Origin: Macrostomum lignano
Taxonomy: Eukaryota
DNA: 64,000 bases
Direction of reading: 5' to 3'
Assembly (NCBI GenBank): GCA_002269645.1
Contig: NIVC01003939.1
Location: 4,707 to 68,706 of the forward strand
Shown here piece by piece: positions 1,758 through 43,192 of this stretch. Below the pieces are notes generated by a model. That model worked only from the letters and a program-made list of their open reading frames with translations. It was not told where the DNA came from and did no database searches. The translations under genes and the position numbers were made by a program. Numbering within the stretch: position 1 is the first letter of the stretch; each line of letters starts with the position of its first letter.

Positions 1758-2224
1758 TGACCGACTTGTGCACTGTTCTGCTACTTGTGTAAAATCTTAA
1801 AAACAGCAAAACTTCACAATAATTTGATACGCATGTCACCGCCAACTGCTTCAGACAAGCTGGTCTGTTCAAAACGTACACAAGTTTTTATTTATTTCTG
1901 CAATACAAACTATATATTGTATGCTATGATATGCAAGCATAAATATAATGAACCATATTACAAGAAAGGCATGATGTTTGCGATTTAGTTATGACATCGG
2001 TTGGGAGTCAACAAATTGTTAATACGCTCTTGTTTCAAATAATTTACAATTGATTCAATCTAATTGTTGTTAAACTATTATAGTTCTAAAAAAGACATGT
2101 ACATTGTAGGTCCAGCGCACTGGAAAAATAAGCGTATGGATAATATGAGAATTTAGGTTAGGGCTTTGAATTCTATTTTATCCGCAGTCCAATGACTGGC
2201 GGTGAAATACTGGTAGAGAGAATC

Positions 2225-3016
2225 TCACTTTTCCAGGATGTCTACCTGAGAATCTGACTCTCCCAGGATGTCTACCTGAGAATCTGACTCTCCCAGGATG
2301 TCTACCTGAGAATCTGACTCTCCCAGGATGTCTACCTGAGAATCTGACTCCCTCAAGATGACTACCTGAGAATCTGACTCTCCCAACCTGACTACCTGAG
2401 AATCTGACTCTCCCAACCTGACTACCTGAGAATCTGACTCTCCCAACCTGACTACCTGAGAATCTGACTCTCCCAACCTGACTACCTGAGAATCTGACTC
2501 TCCCAACCTGACTACCTGAGAATCTGACTCTCCCAACCTGACTACCTGAGAATCTGACTCTCCCAACCTGACTACCTGAGAATCTGACTCTCCCAGGATG
2601 ACTACCTGAGAATCCGACTCTCCCAGGATGACTAACTGAGAATCCGACTCTCCCAGGATGACTACCTGAGAATCCGACTCTCCCAGGATGACTACCTGAG
2701 AATCTGACTCTCCCAGGATGACTAACTGAGAATCCGACTCTCCCAGGATGACTAACTGAGAATCCGACTCTCCCAGGATGACTACCTGAGAATCCGACTC
2801 TCCCAGGATGACTACCTGAGAATCTGACTCTCCCAGGATGACTACCTGAGAATCTGACTCTCCCAGGATGACTAACTGAGAATCCGACTCTCCCAGGATG
2901 ACTACCTGAGAATCCGACTCTCCCAGGATGACTAACTGAGAATCTGACTCTCCCAGGATGACTAACTGAGAATCTGACTCTCCCAGGATGACTAACCGAG
3001 AATCTGACTCTCCCAA
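2225..3016. repeat. 30-bp minisatellite (~26 copies)
   Basis: Tandem unit ACTACCTGAGAATCTGACTCTCCCAGGATG with blocks of variants, downstream of the NUDT6 stop. Confidence 0.95.
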
Positions 3017-3123
3017 GCCAAGATGACTAACTAAAAACCAAAAGTTAGAAATTAAAATCCTGCCGAAAAAAGGAGAATTCTCAGATTAACAACTACAAAT
3101 TACGCTGCTATTAAAAAAGCTCT

Positions 3124-5010
3124 TTACCCGACTTCACCCAGCAACGGCCTGTGATACAGACTAACCCGTTTAGCCGTATACAACGAGTGCAATGCAAATC
3201 TTTGCATATCGACCGTCTTAAAACCGTTTCTTAATCCGAGTCTAATCAGCGGCAGAGATGCCCGCAGAATCGGCGCCACCTCCTCTGTCGGCAGTGCATC
3301 AAGCTGGGACACTGTCAGCCAATCAACCTTGGAAATCTCATCTGGACACGGCTTCAACTCGCCTCGCCGCTGTCCATCAAGACTCAGTCGGCACAGTACA
3401 TAAAAATCTGACCGATTAAAAGCCATCGGATGCCAGTGATGATGACGAAAGGCCAGCACAGACTCGAATCGCGCCGCGATGCCGGTTTCTTCCGCGACTT
3501 CGCGAACAGCCGCGTCGCCAATTTCTTCGCCTAAATCGGCGACACCGCCTGGTAGTTTCCATGGCGACTGATGAGGCTTCTTAGTCTGGGCGCCCTGCGA
3601 GAGAGGCAATGATGACTGAATGACTTACCTGTGAAAGAAACCATTAAGCAAAATTAACGCAATTTGGGGTAAACGGCAGGAGTAACTATGACTGTCTTAT
3701 AAAGGCTAAATGCTTCGTCATCTAATTAGTACTACGTCTATTCTTTGGGGTGGGCATTTTTGCGACTTACCTTGGTTGGCCGCCAAATCGGTCGGCCGGA
3801 TCGGCCGACTGTTGCGCATGTATGGCACTATTACGCCCGTAGTGGCAAACATAAAAATAGAAATTATAATTTTTATCTCTAACCTGTTTAGGCGGCAACC
3901 GATGCTCGCGGACGCACAGCAACGAATCGCCATCAATGAGCAAGCCTGCAACCCCGAGCTGATGCGTGCCAAACCGAGGCACTTTACTTGGCCGTCCTGG
4001 CCTCAGCCATTTCACCAGAGTCGCGTAGTAGCCTTCGGCGTGATGATAACGGAAGCCGTCGACAGCCAGGTGTGTAGTTAAACTGCTCAGGTGGAGAGGC
4101 ACTCGAACCCAGGCTGCCGGAGCTACTGTTAAACTGTTGGAGACCGCGTCTGGCTTGTGATGGTAAGAAATAAGGTCGAACTTTTGTACTTTGTTGTTCA
4201 TCATCACAAATTTTTATTTAACGATTTTCTTTAATGATCTTTGAGTTCATCTGTATTTTTTTTACAAAATTAATAATAATAATAATAATAATTGATTACA
4301 CCTGCCCCAATTCGGCAAGATTTGCAAACGACAGTTCTGAATGCTGCGTACGGCTGTTCAGTCCAATGACTGAGGGGTCGCCACACACGCCCTCAATTAC
4401 CCCAACCCCCTCGGGTTGTAGCCTAGTGGTTAGAGCGTCAAGGGCCCACTCGGAACAATCTGTGTCCTTGAGCACCACGTACACTTAACTCTTGCATTGC
4501 TTCAGTTCACCCAGCTGTAAAATGGATGCCAGCATTAGTTGGGGTAATTGAGGATGTGTGGCGACCCCCCAGTCATTGGACTGAACAGCCGTACGCAGCC
4601 TTCAGAGCTTCAGGCTACACAACTGGCCCAATTGGGGCAGGTGTAATCAATTATTATTATTATTATTATTATTACACCAAACTTCAACTACGTATGAATA
4701 TCACGTAGGTAGAATTAACAAGCGATAGTGTTACAAAGTACACTTAAAATTTTGATAGCAAACACTTCTATGAATACCCACCTCTTATATGCTCCATAAC
4801 TAGATCTTCATCAGTGCCCTCGTTAACAGCCGACAGGTCTAGCATAACGCCGCCATATCGATCCGTTGTCATAGCAACACCAGAAGCGTACGTTAACAAC
4901 CGTTTGTTATAATTGCTATTGCTAACAGCTACAGGTGTTGACTGTGCAAGTCTTGTTAGAAAATTTGCAGATCCAATAAGTCTGCAGCAACGCAGCATCA
5001 GACTGTGCAT
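3124..5010 (-). CDS. NUDT6: Nudix hydrolase NUDT6-like, 3 exons (5010-4782, 4149-3884, 3594-3124; ~321 aa)
   Basis: Nudix box WKLPGGVADLGEEIGDAAVREVAEETGI; NUDT6-type motifs DRYGG, GFRYHHAE, PRFGTHQLGVAG, AFNRSDFYVLCRL; GT-AG junctions keep the frame. Confidence 0.9.
3645..3825. mobile_element. ~180-bp dispersed repeat in NUDT6 intron 2; inverted copy at 56224-56408
   Basis: The reverse complement of 56224-56408 aligns by eye along its length (AGTAACTATGACTGTCTTAT, GGGTGGGCATTTTTGCGACTT, GGTTGGCCGCCAAATCGGTC, TTGCGCATGTATG). Confidence 0.75.
4271..4674. mobile_element. Foldback/MITE-like element in NUDT6 intron 1
   Basis: Arms 4271-4410 and 4536-4674 are reverse complements, beginning (TAA)n-TTGATTACACCTGCCCCAATT and ending AATTGGGGCAGGTGTAATCAA-(TTA)n. 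Confidence 0.8.
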
Positions 5011-6117: not shown

Positions 6118-6588
6118 CTACTTAGACATCCGCCTGGGTAAATAGAGTTTAGCCTGAGCAACAAGCAGCCCGAGCAGAGTTCGATACCACAATCGGTTAA
6201 ACTCGTACTGACCCTGGCGAGTCTGCTCAAGAAACTGCCTATAGAACTCGGCCATCTGGTCCGGCATCAGCTGCTCCTCGGGTGCAAACGCCAGCTCAGT
6301 TCGTTTAATAATCGAGAATCTGTCTTTAGCCAGCTTGAATGCCTGATTGTGCGCCGCCCAGTGCTTGTGGCAAAGGTCGAACGCGGCCAGGCGTTTATCG
6401 CGATAGCACCTGGCCTGGATGTCTCTTAACTCGTCACCGATTTTCACATCAACCGGCCGGATGCAAGATCGAGGATCTGGCGGGCCTACACTTTCCGATA
6501 TGCGATTTTTCGATCTCAAAGATGATGACGATGAAGAGGATAACAAGCGGCGGCTAATGCTGCTTAGACAGACGCGACTCACGCTCAT
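6118..6588 (-). CDS. COA8: Cytochrome c oxidase assembly factor 8 (APOPT1), intronless, ~156 aa
   Basis: Ser/Arg-rich mitochondrial presequence-like N-terminus; motifs VGPPDPRSCIRPV, HWAAHN, MAEFYRQFL, FNRLWY match the COA8/APOPT1 family. Confidence 0.85.
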   Translation of the reverse strand: MSVSRVCLSSISRRLLSSSSSSSLRSKNRISESVGPPDPRSCIRPVDVKIGDELRDIQARCYRDKRLAAFDLCHKHWAAHNQAFKLAKDRFSIIKRTELAFAPEEQLMPDQMAEFYRQFLEQTRQGQYEFNRLWYRTLLGLLVAQAKLYLPRRMSK

Positions 6589-6786
6589 TGCCTGCAAGAT
6601 TTGGAAAGAAACAAATCATTAGCTAAACTAATCATTAATATATAATATATTGTTTGTAAGCTTTTGTCTATGGCCAAAAACATCTCATCCACAGAGAGTA
6701 TTTTGAACACTTGAGACGAGCGTACGACAAGGGATAGAAAGTGTAACACAGACAGACAAATTCACACTTTGACAGATGGACAGTCT

Positions 6787-6828
<42 letters not shown>

Positions 6829-8151
6829 ACTACTAAGGACGCATTTATCCGGGCGTTTTGGAGGTGGGGTGGGTGTCAACCCTCCTCGCCTCTCATTGGC
6901 TGGCGCCCCGATCACTAGGTGATCGATACGCGTATCGATATCGGCGCTCGGCGCGCGCGCGCCGCAGGCGCGTGGCGCCAAGCGCCGCAGGCGCACCCTC
7001 CCGATATGTGCACCCTCCCGAGCCGCAGGCGACCCTCCAGAGCAGCAGGCGCCCATCCCGCAGGGGTACCCTCCCGATATGTATGCGCACCCTTCCGATA
7101 TGTATGTCGCAGGCCCCCATGCTGCAGGCGCCCCATGCCGCAAGCACCCCGAGTGTACACTCTACCGAGCCGCAGGCACCCCGAGTGTACACTCTACCGA
7201 GCCGCAGGCACCCCGAGTGTACACTCTCGCGATATGTACACTCTACCACTCTCCCGATATGTAAGATATCTAGTCAGCGATATTAGGCTAGTGAAAACTA
7301 CTTATAGTAGATGAAATTGCGTATATTTACATAAAAAGTAGATAAAACATATTGGTAGGTGTGAATAATGACGCATAATACATATTGGAGCATATGAGCA
7401 GCAAAAACACACAATGTAGGTGCATGGGCAGAAATAGACAAAGCAGGTACTGTAGGCGCTACATAGGTGGAAATACACACAGTATAATGCAGGTGCATAC
7501 ATACACACAATGTAGGTGCAAATTGAGTATAATACAGGAAAATTACATAGCATATAATGTAGGCGCATTTTAAACGATACATTTTGCATATTAACCCGCA
7601 GGCACAAAGTATATATCGGTCATAGGATAAAATACACACACTGGAAGTTAAGTATAATACAACATATGTATGCAAAATTAAGCATATAATGTAGGTGCAA
7701 AGTAAAATATCCAGCCCAGGATATTCGAGACACGCCCCCAGAGTCAGGGCCGGGGATCCCAATGTACAGTGCGGGCGGAGTAACATAGAGAAATTCCAAT
7801 TCCTCCCCAGGGCCGGGGGATCCTAGCGGAGTACAGTTCAGGTAGGAGCGTTCCTAGTCTGCAACCCATAGCTTCCAAATAGGGTACGAGGGGCCAATGT
7901 TTCGAGAGGGGATCCTCAGTACAGTGCGGTCAGAGAGGAGTAACATAGAGAAATTCCTCCCCAAGCCCCAAATAAGGTTTTTTCAAGGGGATCCCAAGTA
8001 CAGTGAGGGCAGAGAGAAATTCCAATTCCTCCCCAAATGGGGGTTATCAAGGACCCCTCACATTGCACAGGGCGGGCAGAATAACAGACCGCATACAAAT
8101 AGGGGTTTTAGCGGATCCCAAGTACAGTGCGCTCCCGGGTGTCAAATGATG
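6829..8151 (+). repeat. Left terminal inverted repeat (1,323 bp)
   Basis: Reverse complement of 14599-15921; mirrored ORFs sit at identical offsets from each end (29, 957, 1068 bp). Confidence 0.95.
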
Positions 8152-8534
8152 CCCCAATGTACAGTGGAGGTAGAGTAACAGACCGCATACAAAGAGAATT
8201 CCAGTCAAACTTTACCGCAGCTCCCACCCCAAATGAGGGTTTTAGTGGATCCCCAGAGGGTAGCTCTCCAAGTTGAGGGATCCCCCCAGTGTGTTGCGAG
8301 GCCCAAGTACAGTGCATGCAGAGAGTAACAGAGTACAAAGAGAAATTCCCTTATCAGTCAAACTCGAGCGCGATCTTCAGCCAGGGCAGTCTCCTCCTCA
8401 TCAGCGCTCTCGAAACATCTGTCAAAGTAAAAAATATTCAATGTAGACAGATTATATGTAATTTATATACGATTTATATGAAATTAAGCTTACCAAAAAT
8501 CGGGTTCGCGCTGTACGGATGCGGCACGCCTCAA

Positions 8535-9032
8535 TTAGCAACCCTCGTCAAACAGATTTCCCCAAGGGTAGGGTTTGATGCTGTCAAGGCAGTCCTGCAG
8601 ATTGTCCTCTGTCTTGACTCGCTTGGCTGGAGGGGGTGCCTCAGGTGCCGGCTTGAAGAGCTTGTCCAAACGGGCGGCAAACATCCTGCGCCACAGTTCA
8701 GGCGTGAATTCGATCGTGTAGCGCCAATTAAACTTTGGGTCCTGATTGAGCCAATTGCGCAGCAAACGGATCCTCCCTCGCGAAGCTTCAACTGCCTTGA
8801 AATTGCCCAACAGGACCCGCTTGTTCACGTGAAGGCGGGCAGCAGCCTCCAGGTCAGGGCGCGCAGCTTCGAGCTTCTTCCACTCTGGCTCGCTCAAGTA
8901 GATTGCAGGGAAGCCGTCCTTCCACACTCCAGCCTCGTTGGTGTAGAGACGCCGAATTTCAATCAAGTTGTGTTCAGTTTCAAATGTGGGCTTCCGCGCC
9001 ACAAAGTTTTCGTATAGAGAGATAGAAGACAT
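8535..9032 (-). CDS. PC4-like (transcriptional coactivator p15 fold) putative ssDNA-binding protein, 165 aa, probably two PC4-like repeats
   Basis: IEIRRLYTNEAGVWKDGFPAIYLSEPEWKKL parallels the PC4 core IDIREYW...[20 protein letters not shown]; a second weaker repeat IRLLRNWLNQDPKFNWRYTIEFTPELWRRM follows; TATA ~50 bp upstream. Confidence 0.65.
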   Translation of the reverse strand: MSSISLYENFVARKPTFETEHNLIEIRRLYTNEAGVWKDGFPAIYLSEPEWKKLEAARPDLEAAARLHVNKRVLLGNFKAVEASRGRIRLLRNWLNQDPKFNWRYTIEFTPELWRRMFAARLDKLFKPAPEAPPPAKRVKTEDNLQDCLDSIKPYPWGNLFDEGC

Positions 9033-9278
9033 GATTTAGCAGCAGCAGCAGCAGAGAGCTCTCTGACAGCCGTGCAGCGCCTTATATACCCCCGGATGGA
9101 GGGTGGGGTGGGTGGTGATTTTGGGGGTGATTTTTGATGATTTTGGTTGGTTTTTGGCGATTGACCAATAACAGGCGAGCTGAGCAGATTTTTTAGTATA
9201 TATACAGACCCCCCAGAGCCAGGGTAGAGAGATAATCCTTCTCTCTCCGCTCGCTCTCTCACGCTCTCTGTTTGCAAA
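9033..9278. promoter_or_regulatory. Divergent promoter between the PC4-like and pPolB genes
   Basis: Minus-strand TATATAA at 9082-9088, plus-strand TATATATA at 9197-9204, central CCAAT at 9165-9169; flanked by head-to-head ATGs (9032 and 9279). Confidence 0.6.
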
Positions 9279-12200
9279 ATGGCTAAACGCAGCGCCAACG
9301 CAACTGCTTTTCTGGCTGACAAGAGGCAACGTCTTTATGGTAAGTTTTAATTAATTTCTGTCTAGACTGTAGTTGCTAGGGTGAGGGTAGGGGCTGAGCT
9401 GCTGCGACAGCTGCAGGGTCTGTGGGACCGCAGAGTAAACAACAAAGACTGCTGCGACAGCTGCGGGGGTCTAGACTGGAGTTGCTAGGGTGGGGTGCTG
9501 CGGCAGGGTCTGTAACAGAGAGTTGCAGGGGAGGGCTAGACAAGTTACAGCCGGGTGTGTGCTGATAAGAAATTGCTGCTAGGGGGGTGTTGTCCAGACA
9601 GGCTGCAGCTGGGGTGCAAATTGCTGCGACAGAGAGTTGCAGGGGTGAGTAAACAAAGACTGGGGTGGGGTGTTGTCTAGACAGGGAGGGGTGTGCTGAT
9701 AAGAAATTGCTGCAAAAACAGACAGTTGCTAGGGTGCTGCGGCAGATAAGAAATTGCTGCAGAATCGTTGGGGCAGGCTAGACAAGTTACAGCCAGGTGG
9801 GGGCAGAGAGTTGCTGGGACAGACTGGGGCTGCAGATAGGGCGCTACCCAGACAGGCTGCAGCTGGGGTGCAAATTGCTGCGACAGAGAGTTGCAGAGTA
9901 AACAACAAAGACTGCTGCGACAGGCTGCAGCGGGGGTACAGATAAGAAATTGCAGAGAGTTGCTGCGGGGACAGCAGAGTAAACTCTGTTAAGAAATTGC
10001 TGGGGCTAGGGCGGGGAAACACGCTGGGGCCAGGAAAATGACAGATTCTTCTGGTTTTTTATCTCCTTGTGTTTTTTCAGACGCGTTTGTCCCGCCAACA
10101 CAGCCGGAATCTGTTACCGGACCGGGTGAGTTATCCAGCCCCCCATTTCCCACACAGACCCTGGCTGACTCACACTCCCCCATTCCCCCATGCAGGTTTT
10201 ACGGCCCGGCTGGATAATCAACGCGACCTGCCCAAGTTTAGGGCAAAGGGTGTCGAGTATGTGGTGCGTATTACCAACACCGAAGATTTGCGGGAGGTGT
10301 TTGCCGACATGCTCGAAGTTTTCAAGCAAGATTTGGCCGGCGAGGATTTCATGGCTGCGAAATTCGAGAGCGACAATATGCTCAAAGCAGCCCATACTCC
10401 CCCGGTGCGTGCAGCCCGCATGACGGCTGAATTGTTGTTCAAGCACATTGACAAGATTGTGCAGTCGGATGCAACTGTATTGTCAGGCAACTTTTCTGTC
10501 CGTCTGCTAAAGGCCTGGGTGCCCCGAGGTGGCTGTGCCCTCGAGAACAAGCATCTAGAAGAGCGGCACGCCTTCTCCAAGCACTATGTCCGCATCACCA
10601 ACTCGGACAAGAGATGCCTGCTGCGCGCTCTGGTCGTGGCCTGCGCCTACCTGCAATTCGTGGCCAAGTCCATCACCGAGGATGTGTGGCGCAGGATCAA
10701 GGCCAATTCGCCCAAGCAGACTAAGCTGGTGGCTGAGCTACAAATCGAGGCAGGCCTCTACACGGTAAGTTTCTAGTATTTTTCTGATAAGAATTTTTAC
10801 GATAAGGAATACTAAAAGAATTTTTACGCAGTATCAGGGAATACTAAAAGATATATTTTCTGATAAGATTTTTACACAGTATCATGGAATACTAAAAGAT
10901 ATATTTTCTGATAAGATTTTTACACAGTATCATGGAATACTAAAAGATATATTTTCTGATAAGATTTTTACACAGTATCAGGGAATACTAAAAGAACCAT
11001 ACTCTGATAAGAAATTTTACGATAAGGAACACTAAAAGAAATATTTTACCCTCCACACAGACTCTTCAAACCGTCTCGCAGGCTGGTCCTTTCGGGGTGG
11101 ATGCACTGCCCGAAGCGATCCGAGCCCTGAACCGGCTGCATCCGGGGCACGATTTTGGTGTACGCGTGTACCGCGCAGAGGAGGCCAACAGGTGCATCTT
11201 CAACCTGCCTGGCACCGAGATTCTGCACCTGCACCTGGTCGAGCAGCACTTTAATGTGGTTACCAAGCTGCCTGCGTTTTTCGGTGGCCGCCGCTACTGC
11301 CCCAAGTGCGAGATGGCCTATGATAGCGAACCCGCCAAGCACAAGTGCGCTGATGCCTGCAGTACATGCAAGACTCCGGGCTCCAACTGTAAGGCAAACC
11401 GCGCATATGTAAGATGCCATGATTGCGGGCTAAATTGCTATAATGCTCAGTGCCTAGAAAATCACAAGCGCAAGAATAAGGCCGGCAGATCGCGCTGTGA
11501 TTCGGTCCACGTTTGCGGCACGTGTGGCTATCTAGAAGAACTAAAAGTAGGCCAGCCCCCTGAGCATCAGTGTGGTTATGCCAAGTGCCCAGTCTGCAAG
11601 CAGTACGACGAAACTGCCACCCACGAGTGCTTTGTCACCCCGCCAAACGCCAAAGAGTCTAGCGCCCCGTATGTTTACTATGATTTCGAGACGTACGTGG
11701 ACTCTGGCAAGCAGCACCGGGTACACTTGGTTACGGCTGCCACCTCCTGCGAGGCGTGTCCCAAACTCTTCCCCAGGCCCCGCTGCAGCGTGTGCGGGGG
11801 ACTACACAGCTCAGCCAATTGCATTGCGGGACGCGATTTGGCACTCGATTTCACGAGCTGTGTCTCGCACAATGACTGTGCCTGTGGGATGCGAGAGTTT
11901 GTATCTGTCGGGCCGCACTCTATCGATGCCTTTTACTGCTGGCTGACTAGTGTGTTCAAGCAGGGGGCAATTGCTATTGCGCACAATGGCTCTGCGTATG
12001 ACGCATTCCTCCTGCTCGGCGCCCTACTCAACGGACTGGCCAAGAAGAAGCCGCAAGTGATCTTCCAGAACAGCCGCCTAATGTATATGAAGTGCGACAA
12101 GATCACCTTCAAGGACAGCCTCAATTTCATCCCTATTGGTCTGGCGCAATTCCCAAAGGCGCTTGGTTTGGGCACCCAACTGACCAAAGGAGATTTCCCG

Positions 12201-14437
12201 CACGTGTTTAACCAGCCTCAAAATTGGGGGTACGTCGGTCCCTACTGCTCAATTGATATGTACGGCGGGAAGAAGAATAAGCAGCATGACTCCATCGCCG
12301 ACTGGCTGGCCAAGCAGGAGGGACAGGTGTTTAATTTTAATAAGGCGTACCTGGACTATTGCCTGCAGGACACGTTAATTTTGCGGGAAGGCTGCCTGAA
12401 ATATGCCCGCCTGATTAAGGACATTTGCGGACTGGACGCATTTGTTCAATCCAACACCATTGCGGGCTTGGCCATGTCGGTATTCACCACCAAGTTTATG
12501 GAGCCCAACACTCTTGGGGTGATTTCCCGCCGGTCCGATGTACAGTCGCACAAGGCGCGGTGCTGGCTGGCACATTTAAATGCAACCGAGTTTGGCGGCC
12601 GGTTGCGGACAGCCGATTCTGGCGGCGAGGCTTTCGCCATGGGCCGTAAGGTCGACGGCTTCGACCCAGAGACCAGGACAGTGCTGCAGTTTCATGGCTG
12701 TTTCTACCATGGCTGTCCCAAGTGCTTCCCCAACGGCGACGTGCTGCACCCGCTCAAGAACCAGCCAATGCGAGCAATTTATGAGGAGACTGAGCGCTTC
12801 ACCCGGCTGCTCTCCACTGCATACAATGTGCGTGTTCTGTGGGAGCACGACTATCAGGACGAGGGAGCGCCAGTCCAGCAGCCTATTCGCCTGGAGGATG
12901 CCCTGTTTGGCGGCCGTACCGAGGCTTTTGTCCCGCACGCCGAGGCCACCGAGACTGTAGAGCTGCGCTATCGGGATGTGGTAAGTTTGTACACTTGTAC
13001 ACACACAGTTGACATGCGTTTGAGTTTATCTTATCCTTATCCCCTAGGTGTCGCTCTACCCGACTGTCAACAAGTTTGACAAGTACCCGGTCGGGCACCC
13101 GGTACACCACCCCGAGCCTCATCTACTGGATGAGCTGCAGCTGGCCCGGTATTTTGGCATCGCCGAGGTGTCGATTCTGCCGCCAACCAATCTCCACATC
13201 CCGCTACTGCCCGCCAAGATTAACAAGAAGTTGGTTTTCGGCCTCTGCCGCGTCTGCATGGAGACCCAGTGCAGCAGCGAGTGTACACACACTGACGCTG
13301 AGAGAATGCTCCGCGGCACGTGGTCGACCCCAGAGCTCCACAAAGCCCTGCAGTTGGGTTACAAGCTGCAGTCAGTTCATGCCCTGGCCTATTGGACCGA
13401 GACTCGCACGGGCCTGTTTGCAGATTATGTAAACACTTTTTTGAAGCTCAAAGCAGAGTCTAGCGGTTCGCCGGGGATGGCTGAGGACGCCAAGGCTGCC
13501 TACATGGCCAGCTTTTTCGAACGCGAAGGCGTCCGGCTGGAAAAGGTGGAGGAGAATCCTGGCTTGCGCTTTGTTGCCAAGATTTTTCTAAACTCGTAAG
13601 TTTTTTCTACTTGCAGTGGGGACCGTGTTTTTCTACTTACAGTAGCCAGATATACAAAAATTTATTTTTCCCCTGCAGGCTCTGGGGCAAATTCTGCCAG
13701 CGCGACGACCTGACCTCCACAGAGATTGTGGACAGCTACGAGGCGTGGCTGCAGCGCCTGACCGACCCCTCGATCAAGGTCAAGTCGTGCGAGCCAATTG
13801 GGGAGAGCTTCATGATGCTCGAGTACAAGCCCCGATTTGGCGGTGCTGGCGAGCGGGCGTTCAAGTACGCTAATGTACCTATTGGCGTTTTCACCACCTC
13901 CCACGCCCGGCTGCGACTCTACGAGGCTCTGGAGGGTCTAGGAACCCGCGTCATTTACGCCGATACTGATTCGTAAGTAATTTTTTCACTGTCTCTGTCT
14001 CTCTTTCTCCCCTTAACACTTTTTATCCTTCTCCTCCTCCCAGGGTCGTATACCGCTGCTCCCCGGGCGAGTACGAGCCTCCGGGCGGTTCGAGTTTGGG
14101 GCAGTGGACTGACGAGGTACCTGCTGGCTGCCGCATGGTACAGTTCACCACGGGAGGCCCCAAGCTCTACCGGTACGTGGTGGAGAAGCCCGACGGGTCG
14201 CTGTACTCGGTGCTCAAGTGCAAGGGCATCAGAGTCACGCCCGAGATTTCCGAGCGCGAGGACGAGCTGCAGGAAATTCTGCGTCACGGCGGGACTGTAC
14301 GCCTGCCCCAGGCCCAGTTCAGGCGCGATAAGGCCAGTTGTACAATAAGGACCCTCGAGATGGACAAGACTTTCCAGCGCGTGATGACTAAGAGGGTGTA
14401 TGGGGCCGCTAGCCGCCCGTATGGCTTTCGGGAGTGA
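9279..14437 (+). CDS. polB: Protein-primed family B DNA polymerase (Polinton type), 7 exons: 9279-9339, 10081-10125, 10196-10764, 11061-12980, 13048-13595, 13679-13972, 14044-14437 (~1276 aa)
   Basis: All junctions are GT-AG and frame-preserving (3831 nt). ExoI YYDFET, ExoII AHNGSAYD, FKDSLNF, KGDFPHVFN, ExoIII YCLQDT, FGGRTE, motif A YRDV/VSLYP, motif B KIFLNS/LWGKF, motif C YADTDS/VVY, GPKLY, KCKGI. The exon 4 acceptor could alternatively be 11082. Confidence 0.93.
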
Positions 14438-14598
14438 GTGAAAGATAAGGATCTATCTTTTTTACGCCTGGGATTCCCCTATGTGCCCACTTGGGATCCC
14501 TTGACTCGTGGGGATGAAAATGGTTTTACGCCCGCACTGTACTTAGGGGTCCTTACTCATTTGGCACCTCCACTGTACATTGGGGGGCGGGATTCCTT

Positions 14599-15921
14599 CA
14601 TCATTTGACACCAGGGAGCGCACTGTACTTGGGATCCGCTAAAACCCCTATTTGTATGCGGTCTGTTATTCTGCCCGCCCTGTGCAATGTGAGGGGTCCT
14701 TGATAACCCCCATTTGGGGAGGAATTGGAATTTCTCTCTGCCCTCACTGTACTTGGGATCCCCTTGAAAAAACCTTATTTGGGGCTTGGGGAGGAATTTC
14801 TCTATGTTACTCCTCTCTGACCGCACTGTACTGAGGATCCCCTCTCGAAACATTGGCCCCTCGTACCCTATTTGGAAGCTATGGGTTGCAGACTAGGAAC
14901 GCTCCTACCTGAACTGTACTCCGCTAGGATCCCCCGGCCCTGGGGAGGAATTGGAATTTCTCTATGTTACTCCGCCCGCACTGTACATTGGGATCCCCCG
15001 GCCCTGACTCTGGGGCGTGTCTCGAATATCCTGGGCTGGATATTTTACTTTGCACCTACATTATATGCTTAATTTTGCATACATATGTTGTATTATACTT
15101 AACTTCCAGTGTGTGTATTTTATCCTATGACCGATATATACTTTGTGCCTGCGGGTTAATATGCAAAATGTATCGTTTAAAATGCGCCTACATTATATGC
15201 TATGTAATTTTCCTGTATTATACTCAATTTGCACCTACATTGTGTGTATGTATGCACCTGCATTATACTGTGTGTATTTCCACCTATGTAGCGCCTACAG
15301 TACCTGCTTTGTCTATTTCTGCCCATGCACCTACATTGTGTGTTTTTGCTGCTCATATGCTCCAATATGTATTATGCGTCATTATTCACACCTACCAATA
15401 TGTTTTATCTACTTTTTATGTAAATATACGCAATTTCATCTACTATAAGTAGTTTTCACTAGCCTAATATCGCTGACTAGATATCTTACATATCGGGAGA
15501 GTGGTAGAGTGTACATATCGCGAGAGTGTACACTCGGGGTGCCTGCGGCTCGGTAGAGTGTACACTCGGGGTGCCTGCGGCTCGGTAGAGTGTACACTCG
15601 GGGTGCTTGCGGCATGGGGCGCCTGCAGCATGGGGGCCTGCGACATACATATCGGAAGGGTGCGCATACATATCGGGAGGGTACCCCTGCGGGATGGGCG
15701 CCTGCTGCTCTGGAGGGTCGCCTGCGGCTCGGGAGGGTGCACATATCGGGAGGGTGCGCCTGCGGCGCTTGGCGCCACGCGCCTGCGGCGCGCGCGCGCC
15801 GAGCGCCGATATCGATACGCGTATCGATCACCTAGTGATCGGGGCGCCAGCCAATGAGAGGCGAGGAGGGTTGACACCCACCCCACCTCCAAAACGCCCG
15901 GATAAATGCGTCCTTAGTAGT
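14599..15921 (-). repeat. Right terminal inverted repeat (1,323 bp)
   Basis: Mirror of 6829-8151; the differences I noticed are two compensating 1-bp homopolymer indels and one substitution. Confidence 0.95.
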
Positions 15922-15933
15922 GACAGACACTAT

Positions 15934-17537: not shown

Positions 17538-19179
17538 TCAACTATTGTTCTTTCTCAAGTACAGCACCATTATAGCAGTGGTGGCAACCACGGAGCCGAT
17601 GCTGAAACCGGCAAAAAAGATGGCGGCATGACCCCAGTGGCGTCTGGCCTCGCTAAAAATCCTAGCAGCCAGGCTAAGCACGCGACACCTGCCCAGATAG
17701 AGCAGAAAGTACTTTATTAGACGCAAACAATCGGCCTGGGGATTCTGGTTAATAGCCGATCGAAGCACACCAGGCAACAAGTGGGCTACAAAGAACTGGA
17801 CCCGGACTAGGCCATTCAAGTCGTAGCTGCGGTGGAATTCCGTCTCTAGCTGGTTCACGAGGCGCGCGTACCTGAGCAATGGATAGAATGCATCCTATAG
17901 TAGAGCAAGTATTTTAACAAAATGGCTGGGGTATCTGGGATGGTGGCCCAGCAACTGAGAATCTGGGAGGCTGGCCCAGCAACTGAGGATCTGGAAGGCT
18001 GGCCCAGCAACTGAGGATCTGGAAGGCTGGCCCAGCAACTGAAGATCTGGGAGGCTGGTGGCCCAGCAACTGAGGATCTGGGAGGCTGGCCCAGCAACTG
18101 AGGATCTGAGAGGCTGGCCCAGCGACTGAGGATCTGGGAGGCTGGCCCAGCGACTGAGGATCTGGGAGGCTGGCCCAGCAACTGAGAATCTGGGATGGTG
18201 GCCCAGCAACTGAGTATCTGGGAGGCTGGCCCAGCAACAGAGGATCTGGAAGGCTGGCCCAGCAACTGAGGATCTGGGAGGCTGGCCCAGCAACTGAGGA
18301 TCTGGAAGGCTGGCCCAGCAACTGAGGAACTGGGAGGCTGGCCCAGCAACTGAGGATCTGGGAGGCTGGCCCAGCAACTGAGGATCTGAGAGGCTGGCCC
18401 AACAACTGAGGATCTGAGAGGCTGGCCCAGCGACTGAGGATCTGGGAGGCTGGCCCAGCGACTGAGGATCTGGGAGGCTGGCCCAGCGACTGAGGATCTG
18501 AGAGGCTGGCCCAGCGACTGAGGATCTGGGAGGCTGGCCCAGCGACTGAGGATCTGGGAGGCTGGCCCAACAACTGAGGATCTGGAAGGCTGGCCCAGCA
18601 ACTGGGGATCTGGAAGGCTGGCCCAGCAACTGAGGATCTGGAAGGCTGGCCCAGCAACTGAGGATCTGGAAGGCTGGCTCAGCAACTGAGGATCTGGAAG
18701 GCTGGCCCAGCAACTGGGGATCTGGAAGGCTGGCCCAGCAACTGAGGATCTGGAAGGCTGGCCCAGCAACTGGGGATCTGGAAGGCTGCCCTAAAAGTCT
18801 TGTGAACTCACGTGATTCGCTGCTGATTAAACTGATCAGCCAAGGTGCGCAACCGCCCAGCCTCCTGCGTGGAGGCAAAATCGGCGGCATACCGCCTGAG
18901 CTGCAGTCCGACATCGCTGTTTCGAAGGCTTGCCTGAGCTCTGTCCACAAAATCAGGCGGAGCGTTCACCGTTTCTTGGGCGGCCACGGTAGTGAGCGTG
19001 TTAATATTGATGTCTGGCACCTCTTGGGCTGCAGTGCTGGTCAGGAGACCAGTGGTGGCTTCTAGCACGTGCTGCTCAACAGGGTTGAGCTCGTTATAAT
19101 CGTACTCTGGCACCGTTGGAACAGTCTGGTCCGCTTCCTCTTCTGCTACGTAGGACTGCTCAGTGGATTTCTTTTCCAT
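17538..19179 (-). CDS. Divergent Bcl-2-family protein A, 2 coding exons (19179-18812, 17871-17538; ~233 aa)
   Basis: BH3-like VGLQLRRYAADF and GRLRTLADQFN, degenerate BH1-like EFHRSYDLNGLVRVQFFVAHLL, C-terminal TM IFFAGFSIGSVVATTAIMVLYL plus basic tail; frame-preserving GT-AG intron. Confidence 0.65.
17930..18790. repeat. 28-bp minisatellite family (CAGCAACTGAGGATCTGGGAGGCTGGCC), intronic array
   Basis: Same unit recurs at 21645-22325, 44107-44500, 45538-45880 (inverted) and 47550-48125. Confidence 0.95.
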
Positions 19180-21101: not shown

Positions 21102-22653
21102 TCACTTATCAATATTCCGCAGTAAAAAATAGCCAACAACGGCGCAGGCGGCAGAAGCCACGGCAAGACCGGACAAAAAACCCAACAGAGCTTCCTGACG
21201 CCTCTGGCTAAGATTTCGAAACATATTAGCCAGAAACTTGATCAGGTTAGCCAGCAGATAGGCTAGAAAAGCAAACATGAGCTGTTTGCACAGATCCTTG
21301 AACACGGATTCGCCGCCTTCAAAGTAGGCACGCTGCAACAGCCTAGCAACAAAATGGAACAGAGCTACGAACGATTCCACATTGTAGCCGGAGTGGAACA
21401 GCTGTTCGAGAATGTCAGTGAAGCTATGGGGATTGCTAGACAGCTCCGATAGGTTCACGCTGGCGGCCAGCTGATCCGCCTGGGTGCCCTGGCGAGAGGC
21501 GCGGAACTCGTCGGCGAGTCGGGACATCTCCTGCCCAAGGCTGCTGCTGCTCAGCTGGGTGCCCAGTGGGGACCGGAGCAGGTTGTTCACCTATAGAGTT
21601 TTTTGTTCATTGGTCGCGTGACACAAGAAGCTAATAAGAGTACAACTGGGAGGATTTGGGAGGCTGGTCCAGCAACTGAGGATCTGGGAGGCTGGCCTAG
21701 CAACTGAGGATCTGGGAGGCTGGTCCAGCAACTGAGGATCTGGGGGGCTGGTCCAGCAACTGAGGATCTGGGAGGCTGGTGGTCCAGCAACTGAGGATCT
21801 GGGACGCTGGCCCAGCAACTTAGGATCTGGGAGGCTGGCCCAGCAACTGAGGATCTGGGAGGCTGGTGGTCCAGCAACTGAGGATCTGGGACGCTGGCCC
21901 AGCAACTTAGGATCTGGGAGGCTGGCCCAGCAACTGAAGATCTGGGAGGCTGGTGGTCCAGAAATTGAGGATTTGGGAGGCTGGTCCAGAGACTGACACT
22001 CTGGGACGCTGGCCCAGCAACTGAGGATCTGGGACGCTGGCCCAGCAACTTAGGATCTGGAAGGCTGGCCCAGCAACTGAAGATCTGGGAGGCTGGTGGT
22101 CCAGAAATTGAGGATTTGGGAGGCTGGTCCAGAGACTGACACTCTGGGAGGCTGGCCCAGTAACTGAAGATCTGGGAGGCTGGTGGCCCAGCAACTGGGG
22201 ATTTGGGAGGCTGGCCCAGCAACTTAGGATCTTGGAGGCTGGTGGCCCAGCAACAGAGGATTTGGGAGGCTGGCCCAGCAACTGGGGATCTGGGAGGCTG
22301 GCCCAGCAACTGAGGATCTGGGATTCTAGCTCAATATCTAAGGATCTGGGAGTTGTGGCGGTTGGCCAACACGCAGATATCACCATTCAACTAGGTTGTC
22401 AGGTCACCTCGTTAGAGTCGCCCAGCAGCTCCCTGCTTGCAGACTCGGCCACAGCCTCGGCCTCGTGATTGACATCAGGCGGCAGCGGCATGTTCTCCAG
22501 GTTGTAGCGGAGCAAATCGTAGCTCATGCTGAACGCGGTTCGCTCCTCGGTTTCTAAACTTTCGAAACTCGGCAATCTTGGAGTCGAAGTCTCCGACAGA
22601 TTGACATCGCCGTGGCTCGTACCGGTTGCAGCCTCTTTCGAGTCTTTAACCAT
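21102..22653 (-). CDS. Bcl-2-family protein B (Bax/Bak/Bok-like layout), 2 exons (22653-22408, 21590-21102; ~244 aa)
   Basis: BH3 LGQEMSRLADEF, BH1-like LFHSGYNVESFVALFHF (canonical LFxDGxNWGRIVAFFxF), C-terminal TM ALLGFLSGLAVASAACAVVGYFLL. Confidence 0.75.
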
Positions 22654-22819: not shown

Positions 22820-25330
22820 TAGTTCAGATCTTGGTGAGAACAATTTTGGAGGAGAATCTCGGTGGGGGAATCTTGATGGGTAGTTTTGGTGGGGGAATCT
22901 TGATGGATAGTTTTGGTGGGGGAATATTGGGGAAGAGAATCTTGGTGGGTAGTTTTGGTGGGGGAATATTGGGAGAGAGAATCTTGATGGGTAGTTTTGG
23001 TGGGGGAATATTGGGGGAGAGAATCTTGGTGGGGAGAATCTTGGTGGGTAGTTTTGGTGGGGGAATATTGGGAGAGAGAATCTTGGTGGAGAGAATCTTG
23101 GTGGGTAGTTTTGGTGGGGGAATATTGGGGGAGAGAATCTTGGTGGGGGAATCTTGATGGATAGTTTTGGTGGGGGAATATTGGGGAAGAGAATCTTGGT
23201 GGGTAGTTTTGGTGGGGGAATATTGGGGGAGAGAATCTTGGTGGGGGAATCTTGATGGATAGTTTTGGTGGGGGAATATTGGGGAAATCTTGGTGGGTAG
23301 TTTTGGTGGGGGAATATTGGGGGAGAGAATCTTGGTGGGGGAATCTTGATGGATAGTTTTGGTGGGGGAATATTGGGGAAGAGAATCTTGGTGGGTAGTT
23401 TTGGTGGGGAATATTGGGGGAGAGAATCTTGGTGGGTAGTTTTGGTGGGGGAATATTGGGGGAGAGAATCTTGATGGGTAGTTTTGGTGGGGGAATATTG
23501 GGGAAGAGAATCTTGGTGGGTAGTTTTGGTGAGGGAATATTGGGGGAGAGAATCTTGGTGGGTAGTTTTGGTGGGGGAATATTGGGGGAGAGAATCTTGG
23601 TGGAGAGAATCTTGGTGGGGAGAATCTTGATGGGTAGTTTTGGTGGGGGGAATATTGGGGGAGAGAATCTTGGTGGGGAGAATCTTGGTGGGTAGTTTTG
23701 GTGGGGGAATATTGGGAGAGAGAATCTTGGTGAAGAGAATCTTGGTGGGTAGTTTTGGTGGGGGAATATTGTGGGAGAGAATCTGGGTGGGTAGTTTTGG
23801 TGGGGGAATATTGGGGGAGAGAATCTTGGTGGGGGAATCTTGATGGATAGTTTTGGTGGGGGAATATTGGGGAAGAGAATCTTGGTGGGTAGTTTTGGTG
23901 GGGGAATATTGGGGGAGAGAATCTTGGTGGGGGAATCTTGGTGGGTAGTTTTGGTGGGGGAATATTGGGGGAGAGAATCTTGGTGAGTAGTTTTGGTGGG
24001 GGGAATATTGGGGAAGAGAATCTTGGTGGGTAGTTTTGGTGGGGGAATATTGGGGGAGAGAATCTTGGTGGGGGAATCTTGATGGATAGTTTTGGTGGGG
24101 GAATATTGGGGAAGAGAATCTTGGTGGGTAGTTTTGGTGGGGGAATATTGGGGGAGAGAATCTTGGTGGGTAGTTTTGGTGGGGGAATATTAGGGGAGAG
24201 AATCTTGGTGGAGAGAATCTTGGTGGGTAGTTTTGGTGGGGGAATATTGGGGGAGAGAATCTTGGTGGGTAGTTTTGGTGGGGGGAATATTGGGAGAGAG
24301 AATCTTGGTGGAGAGAATCTTGGTGGGTAGTTTTGGTGGGGGAATATTGGGGGAGAGAATCTTGGTGGGTAGTTTTGGTGGGGGGAATATTGGGAGAGAG
24401 AATTTTGGTGGAGAGAATCTTGGTGGGTAGTTTTGGTGGGGGAATATTGGGGGAGAGAATCTTGGTGAGGAGAATCTTAAGGGGAGAATCTTGGTGGGGG
24501 AATATTGGTGGGGAGATTTTTAGTGGGGAGAATCTTGGTGGGGGAATATTGGTGGGGAGATTTTTAGTGGGGAGAATCTTGGTGGGGGAATATTGGTGGG
24601 GAGATTTTTAGTGGGGAGAATCTTGGTGGGGGAATATTGGTGGGGAGATTTTTAGTGGGGGGAATCTTGGTGGGGGAATATTGGTGGGGAGATTTTTAGT
24701 GGGGAGAATCTTGGTGGGGAATATTGGTGGGGAGATTTTTAGTGGGGAGAATCTTGGTGGGGGAATATTGGTGGGGAGATTTTTAGTGGGGAGAATCTTG
24801 GTGGGGGAATATTGGTGGGGAGATTTTTAGTGGGGGGAATCTTGGTGGGGGAATATTGGTGGGGAGATTTTTAGTGGGGAGAATCTTGGTGGGGGAATAT
24901 TGGTGGGGAGATTTTTAGTGGGGAGAATCTTGGTGGGGGAATATTGGTGGGGAGATTTTTAGTGGGGAGAATCTTGGTGGGGGAATATTGGTGGGGAGAT
25001 TTTTAGTGGGGAGAATCTTGGTGGGGGAATATTGGTGGGGAGATTTTTAGTGGGGAGAATCTTGGTGGGGGAATATTGGTGGGGAGATTTTTAGTGGGGA
25101 GAATCTTGGTGGGGGAATATTGGTGGGGAGATTTTTAGTGGGGAGAATCTTGGTGGGGGAATATTGGTGGGGAGATTTTTAGTGGGGAGAATCTTGGTGG
25201 GGGAATATTGGTGGGGAGATTTTTAGTGGGGGGAATCTTGGTGGGGGAATATTGGTGGGGAGATTTTTAGTGGGGAGAATCTTGGTGGGGGAATATTGGT
25301 GGGGAGATTTTTAGTGGGGAGAATCTTGGT
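22820..25330. repeat. G-rich minisatellite block (GGGAGAGAATCTTGGTGGGTAGTTTTGGTGGGGGAATATT and a second unit GGGGAGATTTTTAGTGGGGAGAATCTTGGTGGGGGAATATTGGT)
   Basis: 2.5 kb of tandem G-tract units, two sub-arrays. Confidence 0.95.
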
Positions 25331-41800: not shown

Positions 41801-43192
41801 CTCATGCTTCAGGATCAAGACTCTCAGAATTCAGGAACAAGAATCTCATGCTTCAGGATCAAGACTCTCAGACTTCAGGATCAAGAATATCATGCGTCAG
41901 GATCAAGAATATCATGCGTCAGGATCAAGAGCCTCATGCTTCAGGATAAAGACTCTCAGAATTCAGGATCAATAATCTCAGACTTCAGGATCAAGAGCCT
42001 CATGCTTCAGGATCAAGAATCTCAGGCTTCAGGATCAAGACTCTCAAAATTCAGGATCAAGAATCTCAGGCTTCAGGATCAAGAATATCATGCTTCAGGA
42101 TCAAGAGCCTCATGCTTCAGGATCAAGACTCAGAATTCAGGATCAAGAATCTCAGGCTTCAGGATCAAGAATCCCAGGCTTCAGGATAAAGACTCCCAGC
42201 CTTTAGGATGAAGACTTTTAGGCTTTAAGACACAGACTCTCAGGCTTCAGAAACAAAGCTCGGGAATATAATCAGAGCTTTAAGCAAGGCGCTGCAGTGT
42301 TCAACACAATTTTAGGGTTCAGAATGATGGAATCTCGACAGAAATCAAACAAATCTACCTTTAGCGTCAGTTCATCCACCGTCTGCTGCTGTTGCTTCTG
42401 TTGCTCCTGCTGGTGCATCTTGTCGCCGCTGCCGCAGAAACAGCCGTCCATTCCTGAATGATTCGACGAACAGTTGGATTCCGCAGACATTGGAGAAGCT
42501 GCACCAGACGACAGAGCGTCCTGCAACCGTAGTATAAGGCTGCGCATCTCTTTCAATTCACTTCTGGCCTCTTCCAATTCGCTGCCATTGCCGCTAGCAG
42601 ACGAGGCCGCTGTAGAACCGAAGCCTAGCAACTGAGCAGTAGGTGAGCTGGCATGAGAACCGGCAGATATTGTAGGCGTAGCTCCGTGTCTGGGACTGTT
42701 GCAGCCGCTAGATAGCCAACCGGAAGCTGGCGTCTCTTCGCCATTATTATTATGATTATTAGCCGATGACAGCTTCTTTCTAGCTCGGGACAGAGTAGCT
42801 CCGTCGGCGGCTTGTTGCTGTTGAGCGGCCTGCTTTTGATGCCGAACAGAAGCTGGCTTATAGTGAGCAGCTAATGCCAATATTAATCTCATAACAGCTT
42901 TAACATCGCCTGACATGACTACGCGCGGTTCAATGCGATGCATTCTGATTCGGCGGGATCGCATGAAATCCAGCACTACTAGGATGTTCTGCTCTCGATC
43001 GTAGTCGTCTATGGGATACCAGATGATGTCTTCTAGTTTAACGTCGGCAACAGTTTCAACTAAGACTGCTAGGCTGGTGCCGTTTAATATGCTGGGATCT
43101 GTTAGATCTTTTACTAGCGGATAGCCTGGTCGCTTCTTCAACTGACTGTTCACCCAGGCTGTGTAGGATGGCACCTGTTGGCTCCAGTCCAT
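38836..43192 (-). CDS. DIXDC1: Dixin (CH domain + coiled coil + DIX domain), 3 exons (43192-42359, 40672-40064, 39279-38836; ~628 aa)
   Basis: CH: SYTAWVNSQLKKRP...RSRRIRMH...MRLILALAAHYKP; DIX: TRCLYYTERSAAPYLLNIPK/VTLGDIK...WRYLFK...DDNQVVPVWEDKIVVWV; frame-preserving GT-AG junctions. Confidence 0.9.
40800..42250. repeat. Two related 22-bp minisatellites in DIXDC1 intron 1
   Basis: TAGACTTCAGGATTCATACTCT array grading into CAGGATCAAGACTCTCAGACTT array. Confidence 0.9.

What the first reader, a model, noticed from the sequence alone, without database searches (positions are those of the whole stretch)
6829..15921. Minimal two-gene, intron-containing Polinton-like linear replicon (pPolB + PC4-like SSB; no integrase, no capsid)
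Seen: a 9,093-bp unit with 1,323-bp near-identical TIRs. Its 6.4-kb unique core is almost fully accounted for by an intact spliced pPolB and a divergent PC4-like gene. I found no room or motifs for RVE integrase, A32-type ATPase, adenain protease or jelly-roll capsids. Established: canonical Polintons/Mavericks are ~15-20 kb and carry integrase plus morphogenesis genes; protein-primed strand-displacement replication (phi29, adenovirus) needs polymerase, terminal protein and an SSB. Inference: this element keeps exactly that replication kit and nothing else. It may be a nuclear linear-plasmid-like or satellite element that self-replicates but borrows integrase (and possibly capsids) from a helper Polinton. 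Six spliceosomal introns and a tidy bidirectional promoter argue for a long-evolved family rather than a fresh deletion.
Basis: partly seen in the sequence, partly recalled or inferred. Interest (0 to 1): 0.93.

Follow-up and report, generated by a model that had tools for sequence, protein, structure and literature searches.

The report
Self-copying, integrase-borrowing mini-Polinton family
A flatworm genome holds dozens of young copies of a 9-kb virus-derived jumping element that keeps a working DNA-copying kit but has no gene for inserting itself or for a virus shell, so it very probably borrows an insertion enzyme from another element.

Summary
Observation confirmed. The 9,093-bp unit has 1,323-bp TIRs, a 6-bp target duplication, an intact 1,276-aa spliced pPolB (terminal protein, vOTU protease, exonuclease, VSR, palm) and a divergent tandem PC4-fold gene. 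No integrase, ATPase, protease or capsid was found. It is a family, not a one-off deletion: 157 matching termini in the genome, 25 of 35 paired elements 8-11 kb, perfect 6-bp TSDs at 7 of 7 loci read at both ends, pN/pS 0.06-0.12 on pPolB, splice joints in sequencing runs, and a sister family (66% aa) with the same introns and gene pair. The host (Macrostomum lignano by UniRef labels) also carries capsid- and integrase-encoding Polintons, but with unrelated polymerases and, in the one end read, AGTAGT rather than ACTACT. Best reading (0.7): a semi-autonomous Polinton derivative that replicates itself by protein-primed strand displacement and is integrated in trans. The helper, episomes and packaging are not shown. 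Introns are the less novel part: four metagenome contigs here, and earlier notes of this scan on other DNA, show intron-bearing Polintons. I found no report of a selected, integrase-less, capsid-less family in ten literature searches.

The parts
6823..6828 (.). Left copy of the 6-bp target-site duplication (GACAGA), in a (GACA)n tract
   Evidence: ambiguous alone, but unique-sequence 6-bp TSDs at six other loci
6829..8151 (+). Left TIR, 1,323 bp
6829..6860 (+). Terminal motif: ACTACTAWG, AT at 19-20, TTTTG at 28-32, with fixed-length but variable cassettes between; likely origin and integrase attachment site (inferred)
   Evidence: 30 of 30 ends picked by the first 10 nt alone have TTTTG at 28-32, 29 of 30 have AT
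8419..8493 (-). 75-nt GT-AG intron in the 3' untranslated part of the small gene
   Evidence: joint 8418/8494 in 4 of 4 runs laid
8535..9032 (-). 165-aa protein with two tandem PC4-like repeats (PC4/PUR/Whirly ssDNA-binding fold) and a disordered tail; SSB role inferred
   Evidence: AF2 pLDDT 79; PC4 1pcf TM 0.80 on target; adintovirus 'MOSUB' E 3e-4; Pur-alpha Z 9.1, 118 aligned, rmsd 4.1; Atlas PC4 0.90
9033..9278 (.). 246-bp head-to-head intergenic region with TATA-like boxes near 9083-9088 and 9197-9204; bidirectional promoter inferred
9279..14437 (+). pPolB gene, 7 exons, 1,276 aa, Beta/pPolB2 class
10196..10764 (+). Exon 3: terminal-protein (D1) domain with conserved QS (candidate priming Ser126, codon 10465-10467) and vOTU catalytic Cys176 (10615-10617)
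   Evidence: alignment with 10 outside pPolBs; profile E 8e-5 against best shuffle 0.32
11061..12980 (+). Exon 4: vOTU His288 (11247-11249), Cys-rich region, exonuclease motifs, VSR-like insertion (about 12540-12860), start of Pol motif A
9340..10080 (+). Intron 1 (741 nt)
   Evidence: joint in 3 of 4 runs
10126..10195 (+). Intron 2 (70 nt)
   Evidence: joint in 4 of 4 runs
10765..11060 (+). Intron 3 (296 nt, AT-rich tandem repeat)
   Evidence: joint in 4 of 4 runs
12981..13047 (+). Intron 4 (67 nt), splits DxxSLYP
   Evidence: joint in 3 of 4 runs
13596..13678 (+). Intron 5 (83 nt), splits NS-LWGK
   Evidence: joint in 4 of 4 runs
13973..14043 (+). Intron 6 (71 nt), right after YADTDS
   Evidence: sequence and frame, same site in the sister family; joint not listed because the tool skipped a repeat at 13982-14014
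14599..15921 (-). Right TIR, 1,323 bp
15922..15927 (.). Right copy of the 6-bp TSD (GACAGA)

Best explanation
A semi-autonomous, Polinton-derived transposon family. Host Pol II transcribes the two genes from one head-to-head promoter (inferred) and the spliceosome removes seven introns (six shown as joints). pPolB primes on its own fused terminal protein at the (ACT)2 ends, probably frees the terminal protein with its own vOTU protease, and copies the linear element by strand displacement, with the tandem-PC4 protein binding the displaced strand (inferred from domain homology). The displaced strand can close as a TIR panhandle, which would keep both TIRs of a copy alike while TIRs of sublineages diverge (pattern shown, cause inferred). 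New copies are inserted by a DDE/RVE integrase supplied in trans, most plausibly by a co-resident Polinton, giving exact ends, 6-bp TSDs and a NA(C/T)(G/A)TN target bias (signature shown, donor not identified). It has lost the integrase and the whole virion module.
For: 157 termini, control 0; 35 pairs from the 100 listed ends, median 9.38 kb, 25 of 35 between 8 and 11 kb, none with a listed capsid gene inside. Perfect 6-bp TSD at 7 of 7 loci read at both ends. A at position 2 or T at position 5 in 25 of 42 target positions, 21 distinct sites, p 5e-4 against flank composition. pN/pS 0.06-0.12 in all 24 window-versus-copy comparisons; 289 synonymous against 80 non-synonymous distinct variants. 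Splice joints. TP, vOTU Cys/His and VSR motifs conserved. TIR pairs within a copy differ by 0-3 substitutions per kb in 5 of 6 copies, between sublineages by 29-52 plus 18-35 indels. Sister family B: 66% aa, five introns checked at the same sites, PC4-like gene head-to-head at three loci. Polintons with open RVE integrase, MCP, ATPase and protease frames exist in the genome.
Against: No helper identified. The one autonomous end read starts AGTAGT and shares no TIR sequence with the element; the ends of the other autonomous family were not found. The MCP and integrase lists are partial (126 of 195 and 99 of 2,176 candidates scored), and 57 of 157 ends were not listed. The left arm of family B was never read, and its two pPolB-containing pairs are 13.9 and 18.3 kb; one holds a LINE-type insertion, the rest is unseen. 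No extrachromosomal form is shown. Run types are the tool's guesses. Near-identical TIRs within a copy could also simply reflect youth or gene conversion. Some copies are duplicate loci (same flank in L019/L020 and L032/L033), so insertions are fewer than ends/2.
Confidence: 0.7

Rival explanations
1. Bipartite or split element: a partner segment with related ends carries the integrase (and perhaps capsids), for example the unexplained high-copy PC4-like family C or the unread arm of family B.
For: About 130 of 151 matches to P0047 at 43-65% mark a large third group of tandem-PC4 genes, on contigs without listed pPolB2 hits. One lies 6.8 kb from an integrase (C1319). Segmented relatives exist in fungi (helper and killer plasmids; abstract listing).
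Against: By eye only that one of 56 listed integrases of the 60-62% group lies near a family-C gene. No end pair of the A type holds an integrase except one 40.6-kb nested insertion. The DNA around family C could not be read.
Confidence: 0.1
2. Self-replicating element inserted by a non-Polinton DDE enzyme of the host mobilome (for example a Ginger-like or other cut-and-paste transposase that makes 6-bp TSDs).
For: Ends are 5'-(ACT)2//(AGT)2-3', the inverse of the commonest Polinton motif, with a fixed-spacing subterminal motif; the autonomous Polinton end read here does not match. 247-bp and 1.3-kb MITE-like derivatives exist.
Against: A 6-bp TSD is the Polinton rule, and 5'-AC...GT-3' ends are known from eel Mavericks. 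No such transposase with matching ends appeared among the 35 pairs.
Confidence: 0.1
3. Ordinary non-autonomous internal-deletion derivative: polymerase and PC4 genes are passive cargo copied by a helper.
For: pPolB plus TIR without integrase has been seen as remnants at 10 loci in C. elegans (passage). Several copies carry frameshifts (some may be assembly errors).
Against: Strong purifying selection; two families 66% identical keep the same two genes and intron sites; transcripts are spliced; no close full-length parent.
Confidence: 0.05
4. A close autonomous parent exists but is missing from or collapsed in this assembly, or died recently.
For: Searches score only the top candidates, and the genome-wide A32 ATPase search missed a real ATPase. 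A degraded intronless pPolB2 lies on C234 and joined the minis in one of three trees (SH-like 96).
Against: That gene is only 35-46% identical over the main segments, AT-rich and intronless, and groups away from the minis in the two longer trees. All other pPolB2 matches listed belong to families A or B by identity.
Confidence: 0.05

Closest known systems
Polintons/Mavericks with Beta-class (pPolB2, VSR-bearing) polymerase; adintoviruses
   Same: TP-vOTU-EXO-PALM polymerase (Krupovic 2024, passages), VSR insertion as in marine pPolB2 (Jeong 2023, passages), long TIRs, 6-bp TSD, trinucleotide end repeat; best viral fold match of the small protein is an adintovirus 'MOSUB' protein. A complete intronless relative with integrase, MCP, ATPase and protease is L050.
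   Different: No integrase and no virion module; 9 kb instead of 13-25 kb; seven introns (none in intact vertebrate Mavericks); ends are the inverse of the common motif; nearest outside polymerases only about 30% identical over exon 4.
Capsid-less Polintons (for example Trichomonas vaginalis)
   Same: Loss of the virion module, pure transposon life (passages).
   Different: Those are classed as Polintons, which by definition keep the RVE integrase; this family lacks it and still inserts precisely.
Transpovirons
   Same: Small (about 7 kb) linear TIR elements derived from Polinton-like viruses by loss of the structural module; depend on another virus (passages).
   Different: They encode a pPolB-SF1 helicase fusion without exonuclease, parasitise mimiviruses and are carried in their particles; this element has a full pPolB, introns and chromosomal TSDs in an animal.
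Fungal cytoplasmic and mitochondrial linear plasmids
   Same: pPolB with fused terminal protein, TIRs, no capsid, no integrase.
   Different: They replicate outside the nucleus and the cytoplasmic ones bring their own transcription enzymes; this element needs nuclear splicing and is found integrated.
Non-autonomous DNA transposons (MITE-like derivatives)
   Same: Mobilised in trans through conserved ends.
   Different: Here the replication genes are under purifying selection, so only integration is outsourced.

Membership tests
Polinton/Maverick | Protein-primed family B polymerase | tested here: met
Polinton/Maverick | RVE integrase encoded in the element | tested here: not met
   core is filled by two genes; 0 rve hits in 52 side ORFs; none in 32 loci. 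Family A only; the left arm of family B was not read.
Polinton/Maverick | Long TIRs and 5-8 bp (usually 6 bp) TSD | tested here: met
Polinton/Maverick | Known end motifs (AGT)2//(ACT)2, (AG)3//(CT)3 or (AC)3A//T(GT)3 | tested here: not met
   ends are (ACT)2//(AGT)2; motif list from vertebrates only
Polintovirus/adintovirus | DJR major capsid, penton, A32-like ATPase, adenain protease | tested here: not met
Beta/pPolB2 polymerase class | OTU-bearing polymerase distant from the Pfam PF03175 type; VSR insertion in the marine subgroup | tested here: met
   falls among pPolB2-type rows, apart from the host's two other autonomous polymerases
Transpoviron | pPolB-SF1 helicase fusion | tested here: not met
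   only DNA_pol_B_2 on the exons, exonuclease motifs intact, no P-loop in six frames
Transpoviron / satellite | Packaged in a helper's particles | not testable with these tools
   needs particle purification
Linear plasmid | Free linear DNA with 5'-linked terminal protein | not testable with these tools
   only contigs of runs were available, and only the core was laid
PC4/PUR/Whirly ssDNA-binding superfamily (small gene) | beta-beta-beta-alpha repeat fold | tested here: met
   internal repeat alignment reached by 9 of 500 shuffles
PC4/PUR/Whirly ssDNA-binding superfamily (small gene) | Binds single-stranded DNA | not testable with these tools
   fold only

The most novel reading that the evidence does not exclude
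A true satellite of animal polintoviruses: a nuclear linear episome with protein-capped ends that replicates with its own TP-pPolB and PC4 protein, and takes both the integrase and the capsids of co-resident polintoviruses. That would be an animal counterpart of transpovirons or phage satellites, with hypervariable terminal cassettes that let it keep fitting a helper's integrase.
Probability: 0.25. Interest if true: 0.9.

Novelty: new variant of a known kind. Interest (0 to 1): 0.72.

Why it matters
Polintons are defined by polymerase plus integrase, and their transposition cycle has not been shown experimentally (own knowledge; notes the life cycle is uncharacterised). A family that keeps only the replication half under selection separates replication from integration. 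It shows the minimal replication kit (TP-vOTU-pPolB plus a PC4-type SSB) and implies that an integrase acts in trans on foreign ends. It lies in a laboratory flatworm, is transcribed and spliced, and has dozens of young copies, so episomes, terminal-protein linkage and the helper can be looked for directly. ORF-based or pPolB-plus-integrase screens would miss such elements.

Tried and rejected
Genome-wide Pox_A32 search gave 0 but is a false negative: the L039 ATPase passes the cut-off. The 18.4-kb pair on C56 was tested as a full-length parent: 5 kb read shows a TIR interrupted by other sequence and no Polinton genes; the rest was not read. MCP hits with short frames are frameshifted copies of the AT-rich family, not an intron-bearing helper (one read). 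The degraded pPolB2 on C234 is not a close parent (one contrary short tree). Single-sequence AF2 of the small protein failed (pLDDT 38). No RNA holder is on record; run types are guesses, and run X1, labelled 'DNA?', shows four pPolB joints, with exon/intron depth like RNA (222 in the intron-3 bin against 2,711 and 1,513 beside it), so intronless DNA copies are not excluded by that run, though 8 of 8 genomic copies checked keep all six introns. IMG/VR scans with exon 4, P0047 and P0019 found nothing; the end pattern hit two unrelated contigs. A search for longer fused forms of P0047 found none (weak). No PC4-like hit in 80 metagenome pPolB loci (shallow profile, short contigs). My recollection that the coral polintovirus paper reports introns was wrong: 0 occurrences. 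The IQ-TREE mixture run did not finish; trees are FastTree or a fast IQ-TREE search with SH-type support only, no bootstrap.
Full report
OBSERVATION. The unit runs from 6829 to 15921. Its TIRs (6829-8151, 14599-15921) differ at three places. It starts ACTACT, ends AGTAGT, and has GACAGA on both sides within a (GACA)n tract. Seven exons give an open 1,276-aa frame with ExoI YDFET, ExoII, DxxSLYP, KxxxNSxxGK and YADTDS; three introns cut the Pol motifs. A 165-aa gene faces the other way across 246 bp. The two genes, their introns and the promoter leave 195 bp and 161 bp before the TIRs. None of 52 side ORFs of 50 aa or more hits an integrase, ATPase, protease or capsid family (I chose these 52 of the 138 ORFs listed). 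Thirteen proteins from two host Polintons find nothing better than E 0.29 in 32 element loci.

HOST AND COPY NUMBER. UniRef labels the 97%-identical small protein and the 94%-identical polymerase as Macrostomum lignano. The core has 58 matches from 25 scored of 177 candidates, the long ones at 88-100%. Exon 4 gives 70 matches: 52 at 78-100% (family A) and 18 at 63-65% (family B). A degenerate end pattern gives 157 hits, control 0; 100 were listed. They form 35 pairs: median 9.38 kb, 25 at 8-11 kb, 6 shorter, 4 longer. None contains one of the 73 listed capsid hits; one 40.6-kb pair contains one of 99 listed integrases. Some loci are duplicates, so independent insertions are fewer than about 80; 30 ends read gave 21 distinct target sites.

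INTEGRATION SIGNATURE. All 7 loci read at both ends have a perfect 6-bp TSD, six of them in unique DNA. Targets favour A at position 2 and T at position 5 (25 of 42, p 5e-4), a palindromic bias typical of symmetric DDE integrase complexes (own knowledge). Repair capture of linear DNA would not be expected to give exact ends with a constant 6-bp duplication. Since family A encodes no integrase, one must act in trans. This step is inferred.

THE GENES ARE MAINTAINED. Against 24 other loci, pN/pS on the polymerase exons is 0.06-0.12 (pairwise counts against the window copy, not independent). Some copies have frameshifts; premature stops are almost absent. Contigs of four sequencing runs show joints for introns 1-5 and for a further intron behind the small gene's stop; intron 6 fell in a skipped repeat. 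The run types are guesses. Family B has 66% identity, the same intron sites at the five positions checked, a 43%-identical PC4-like protein lying head-to-head with the polymerase at three loci, and related ends (ACTACGTAGGAC). The two-gene plan is therefore old and shared. The left arm of family B was not read, so its lack of an integrase is not shown.

THE PROTEINS. The polymerase is of the Beta/pPolB2 class (Starrett 2021, PMC8502044, and Jeong 2023, 10.1101/2023.08.22.554363; passages). Krupovic 2024 (10.1101/2024.03.18.585575; passages) describes TP-vOTU-EXO-PALM, with the vOTU proposed to cut off the terminal protein. Here the TP-like domain aligns with outside relatives (profile E 8e-5, best of 300 shuffles 0.32), with a conserved QS as candidate priming serine; the vOTU Cys and His and the VSR motif are conserved. 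This would explain why the element can do without the adenain protease. The small protein folds as two PC4-like repeats (pLDDT 79): human PC4 TM 0.80 over one repeat (E 6e-3), Pur-alpha Z 9.1 over both, and an adintovirus 'MOSUB' protein as the only viral match under E 1e-3. DNA binding is inferred from the fold.

REPLICATION SIGNATURE. The two TIRs of one copy differ by 0-3 substitutions per kb in 5 of 6 copies (10 in the sixth), while sublineages differ by 29-52 substitutions and 18-35 indels, about twice the substitution rate of the 2-kb core segment compared. Fast-changing but pairwise matched TIRs fit panhandle formation during strand-displacement synthesis, as in adenoviruses (own knowledge), though youth alone could give matched pairs. 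The (ACT)2 start fits a jump-back initiation (own knowledge).

HELPERS. The genome has 73 capsid-gene matches and at least 99 Polinton-type integrase loci. Two families were read: both are intronless, with integrase or virion genes and an unrelated polymerase. One end was read and starts AGTAGT. A degraded intronless pPolB2 on C234 is 35-46% identical; it joins the minis in a 287-column tree (96) but not in 729- and 1,485-column trees. So no close parent and no matching helper were found, in partial lists.

OUTSIDE RELATIVES. The nearest outside polymerases are about 30% identical over exon 4. Of 80 metagenome loci kept from 289, most are intronless at the tested sites (45 of 49, 34 of 37, 23 of 23), and 15 of the 21 loci of 8 kb or more show an integrase, ATPase, protease or capsid gene by blastp; two more of the 21 have a P-loop ATPase. 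Four contigs carry their own GT-AG introns. Earlier notes of this scan also report intron-bearing Mavericks in other genomes and one decayed capsid-less, integrase-less stub in a dinoflagellate; I did not check them. Introners in dinoflagellate Polinton-like elements are in print (10.1101/2025.03.18.643946; passages). Introns are thus unusual but not unique.

COMPARISON WITH PRINT. Polintons by definition encode pPolB and an RVE integrase (PMC5499653; passages). Capsid-less ones are known (PMC4028283, PMC4405056; passages). Intact vertebrate Mavericks have no introns and other end motifs (PMC8097293; passages). pPolB-plus-TIR loci without integrase are noted in C. elegans as remnants (10.1101/2024.01.15.575659; passages). 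Ten searches showed no description of a selected, integrase-less and capsid-less family, nor of Macrostomum Polintons. I read passages only. Kapitonov and Jurka 2006 was not held, Repbase could not be searched, and supplementary tables (notably Table S1 of PMC4028283) were not read and may list such elements.

VERDICT. The element works like the replication half of a Polinton, but fails membership on the integrase and the virion module. Best reading: semi-autonomous replicon integrated in trans (0.7). Novelty: new variant of a known kind. Interest 0.72; 0.9 if it proves to be a packaged satellite (probability 0.25).

Noticed in passing
G000, e.g. C130:897129, C382:236589, C664:26381 and 37836, C3189:42051 and 54724, C2692:36677 and 45884: A third, larger group of tandem-PC4-like genes (family C; about 130 of 151 matches to P0047 at 43-65%, open frames about 245-265 aa), not beside listed pPolB2 or MCP hits. 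The element that carries them is unknown.
   Followed up: partly
L054, L055, L057, L075 (metagenome contigs): Other pPolB2 genes carry GT-AG introns. One is at the same site as intron 5 (phase 2 in the Ser of NS-xWGK, but with an AGY instead of a TCN codon), one 5 nt from intron 4. L057 is followed by a P-loop ATPase gene. L054, L055 and L057 form their own clade away from the minis, which suggests parallel intron gain.
   Followed up: partly
L039:3611-3710 (G000:C2696): The autonomous AT-rich Polinton begins with a roughly 100-bp palindrome, (AGT)3...(ACT)3; it encodes a PLA2-like-fused integrase, MCP, ATPase, protease, a D5-like helicase and a different pPolB.
   Followed up: partly
G000:C1368:57955-58201, C4195:41473-41719, C1597:101984-103293: 247-bp and 1.3-kb MITE-like derivatives bounded by family-B-like and family-A ends.
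   Followed up: no
Termini listed: The 32-bp ends are mosaics of a few fixed-length cassettes in many combinations, some elements have two different ends, and TIR and core histories disagree (L004/L005, L002/L003), which points to frequent recombination between copies.
   Followed up: partly
G000:C271:276939-317558; C292:694406-695888: Nesting with autonomous Polintons: an integrase lies inside a 40.6-kb interrupted copy, and another copy ends about 0.65 kb from an integrase. Could be chance.
   Followed up: no
L038:1-2283: An open LINE-type reverse transcriptase plus RNase H frame (by motifs) with a (CA)n tail lies just upstream of the first exon of a family-B polymerase.
   Followed up: no
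window 6118-6597 (-), 3127-3624 (-), 21105-21590 (-), 42275-43219 (-): Host genes: COA8 about 230 bp from the left end, a Nudix hydrolase, a Bcl-2-family protein and a calponin-homology protein.
   Followed up: no
P0006, P0008, P0014: Public gene models fuse this polymerase to host ADAM and synapsin exons, which suggests copies inside or beside host genes that are mis-annotated.
   Followed up: no
L047:9506-10630: A pPolB2 fragment (47% to exon 5) among ankyrin-repeat genes in a 339-733 kb viral contig, identical in three records.
   Followed up: no
window 2098-3147, 17919-18918, 24321-25318, 40727-41664, 51165 onward: Long minisatellite arrays with periods 30, 28, about 15, 22 and 31 bp.
   Followed up: no
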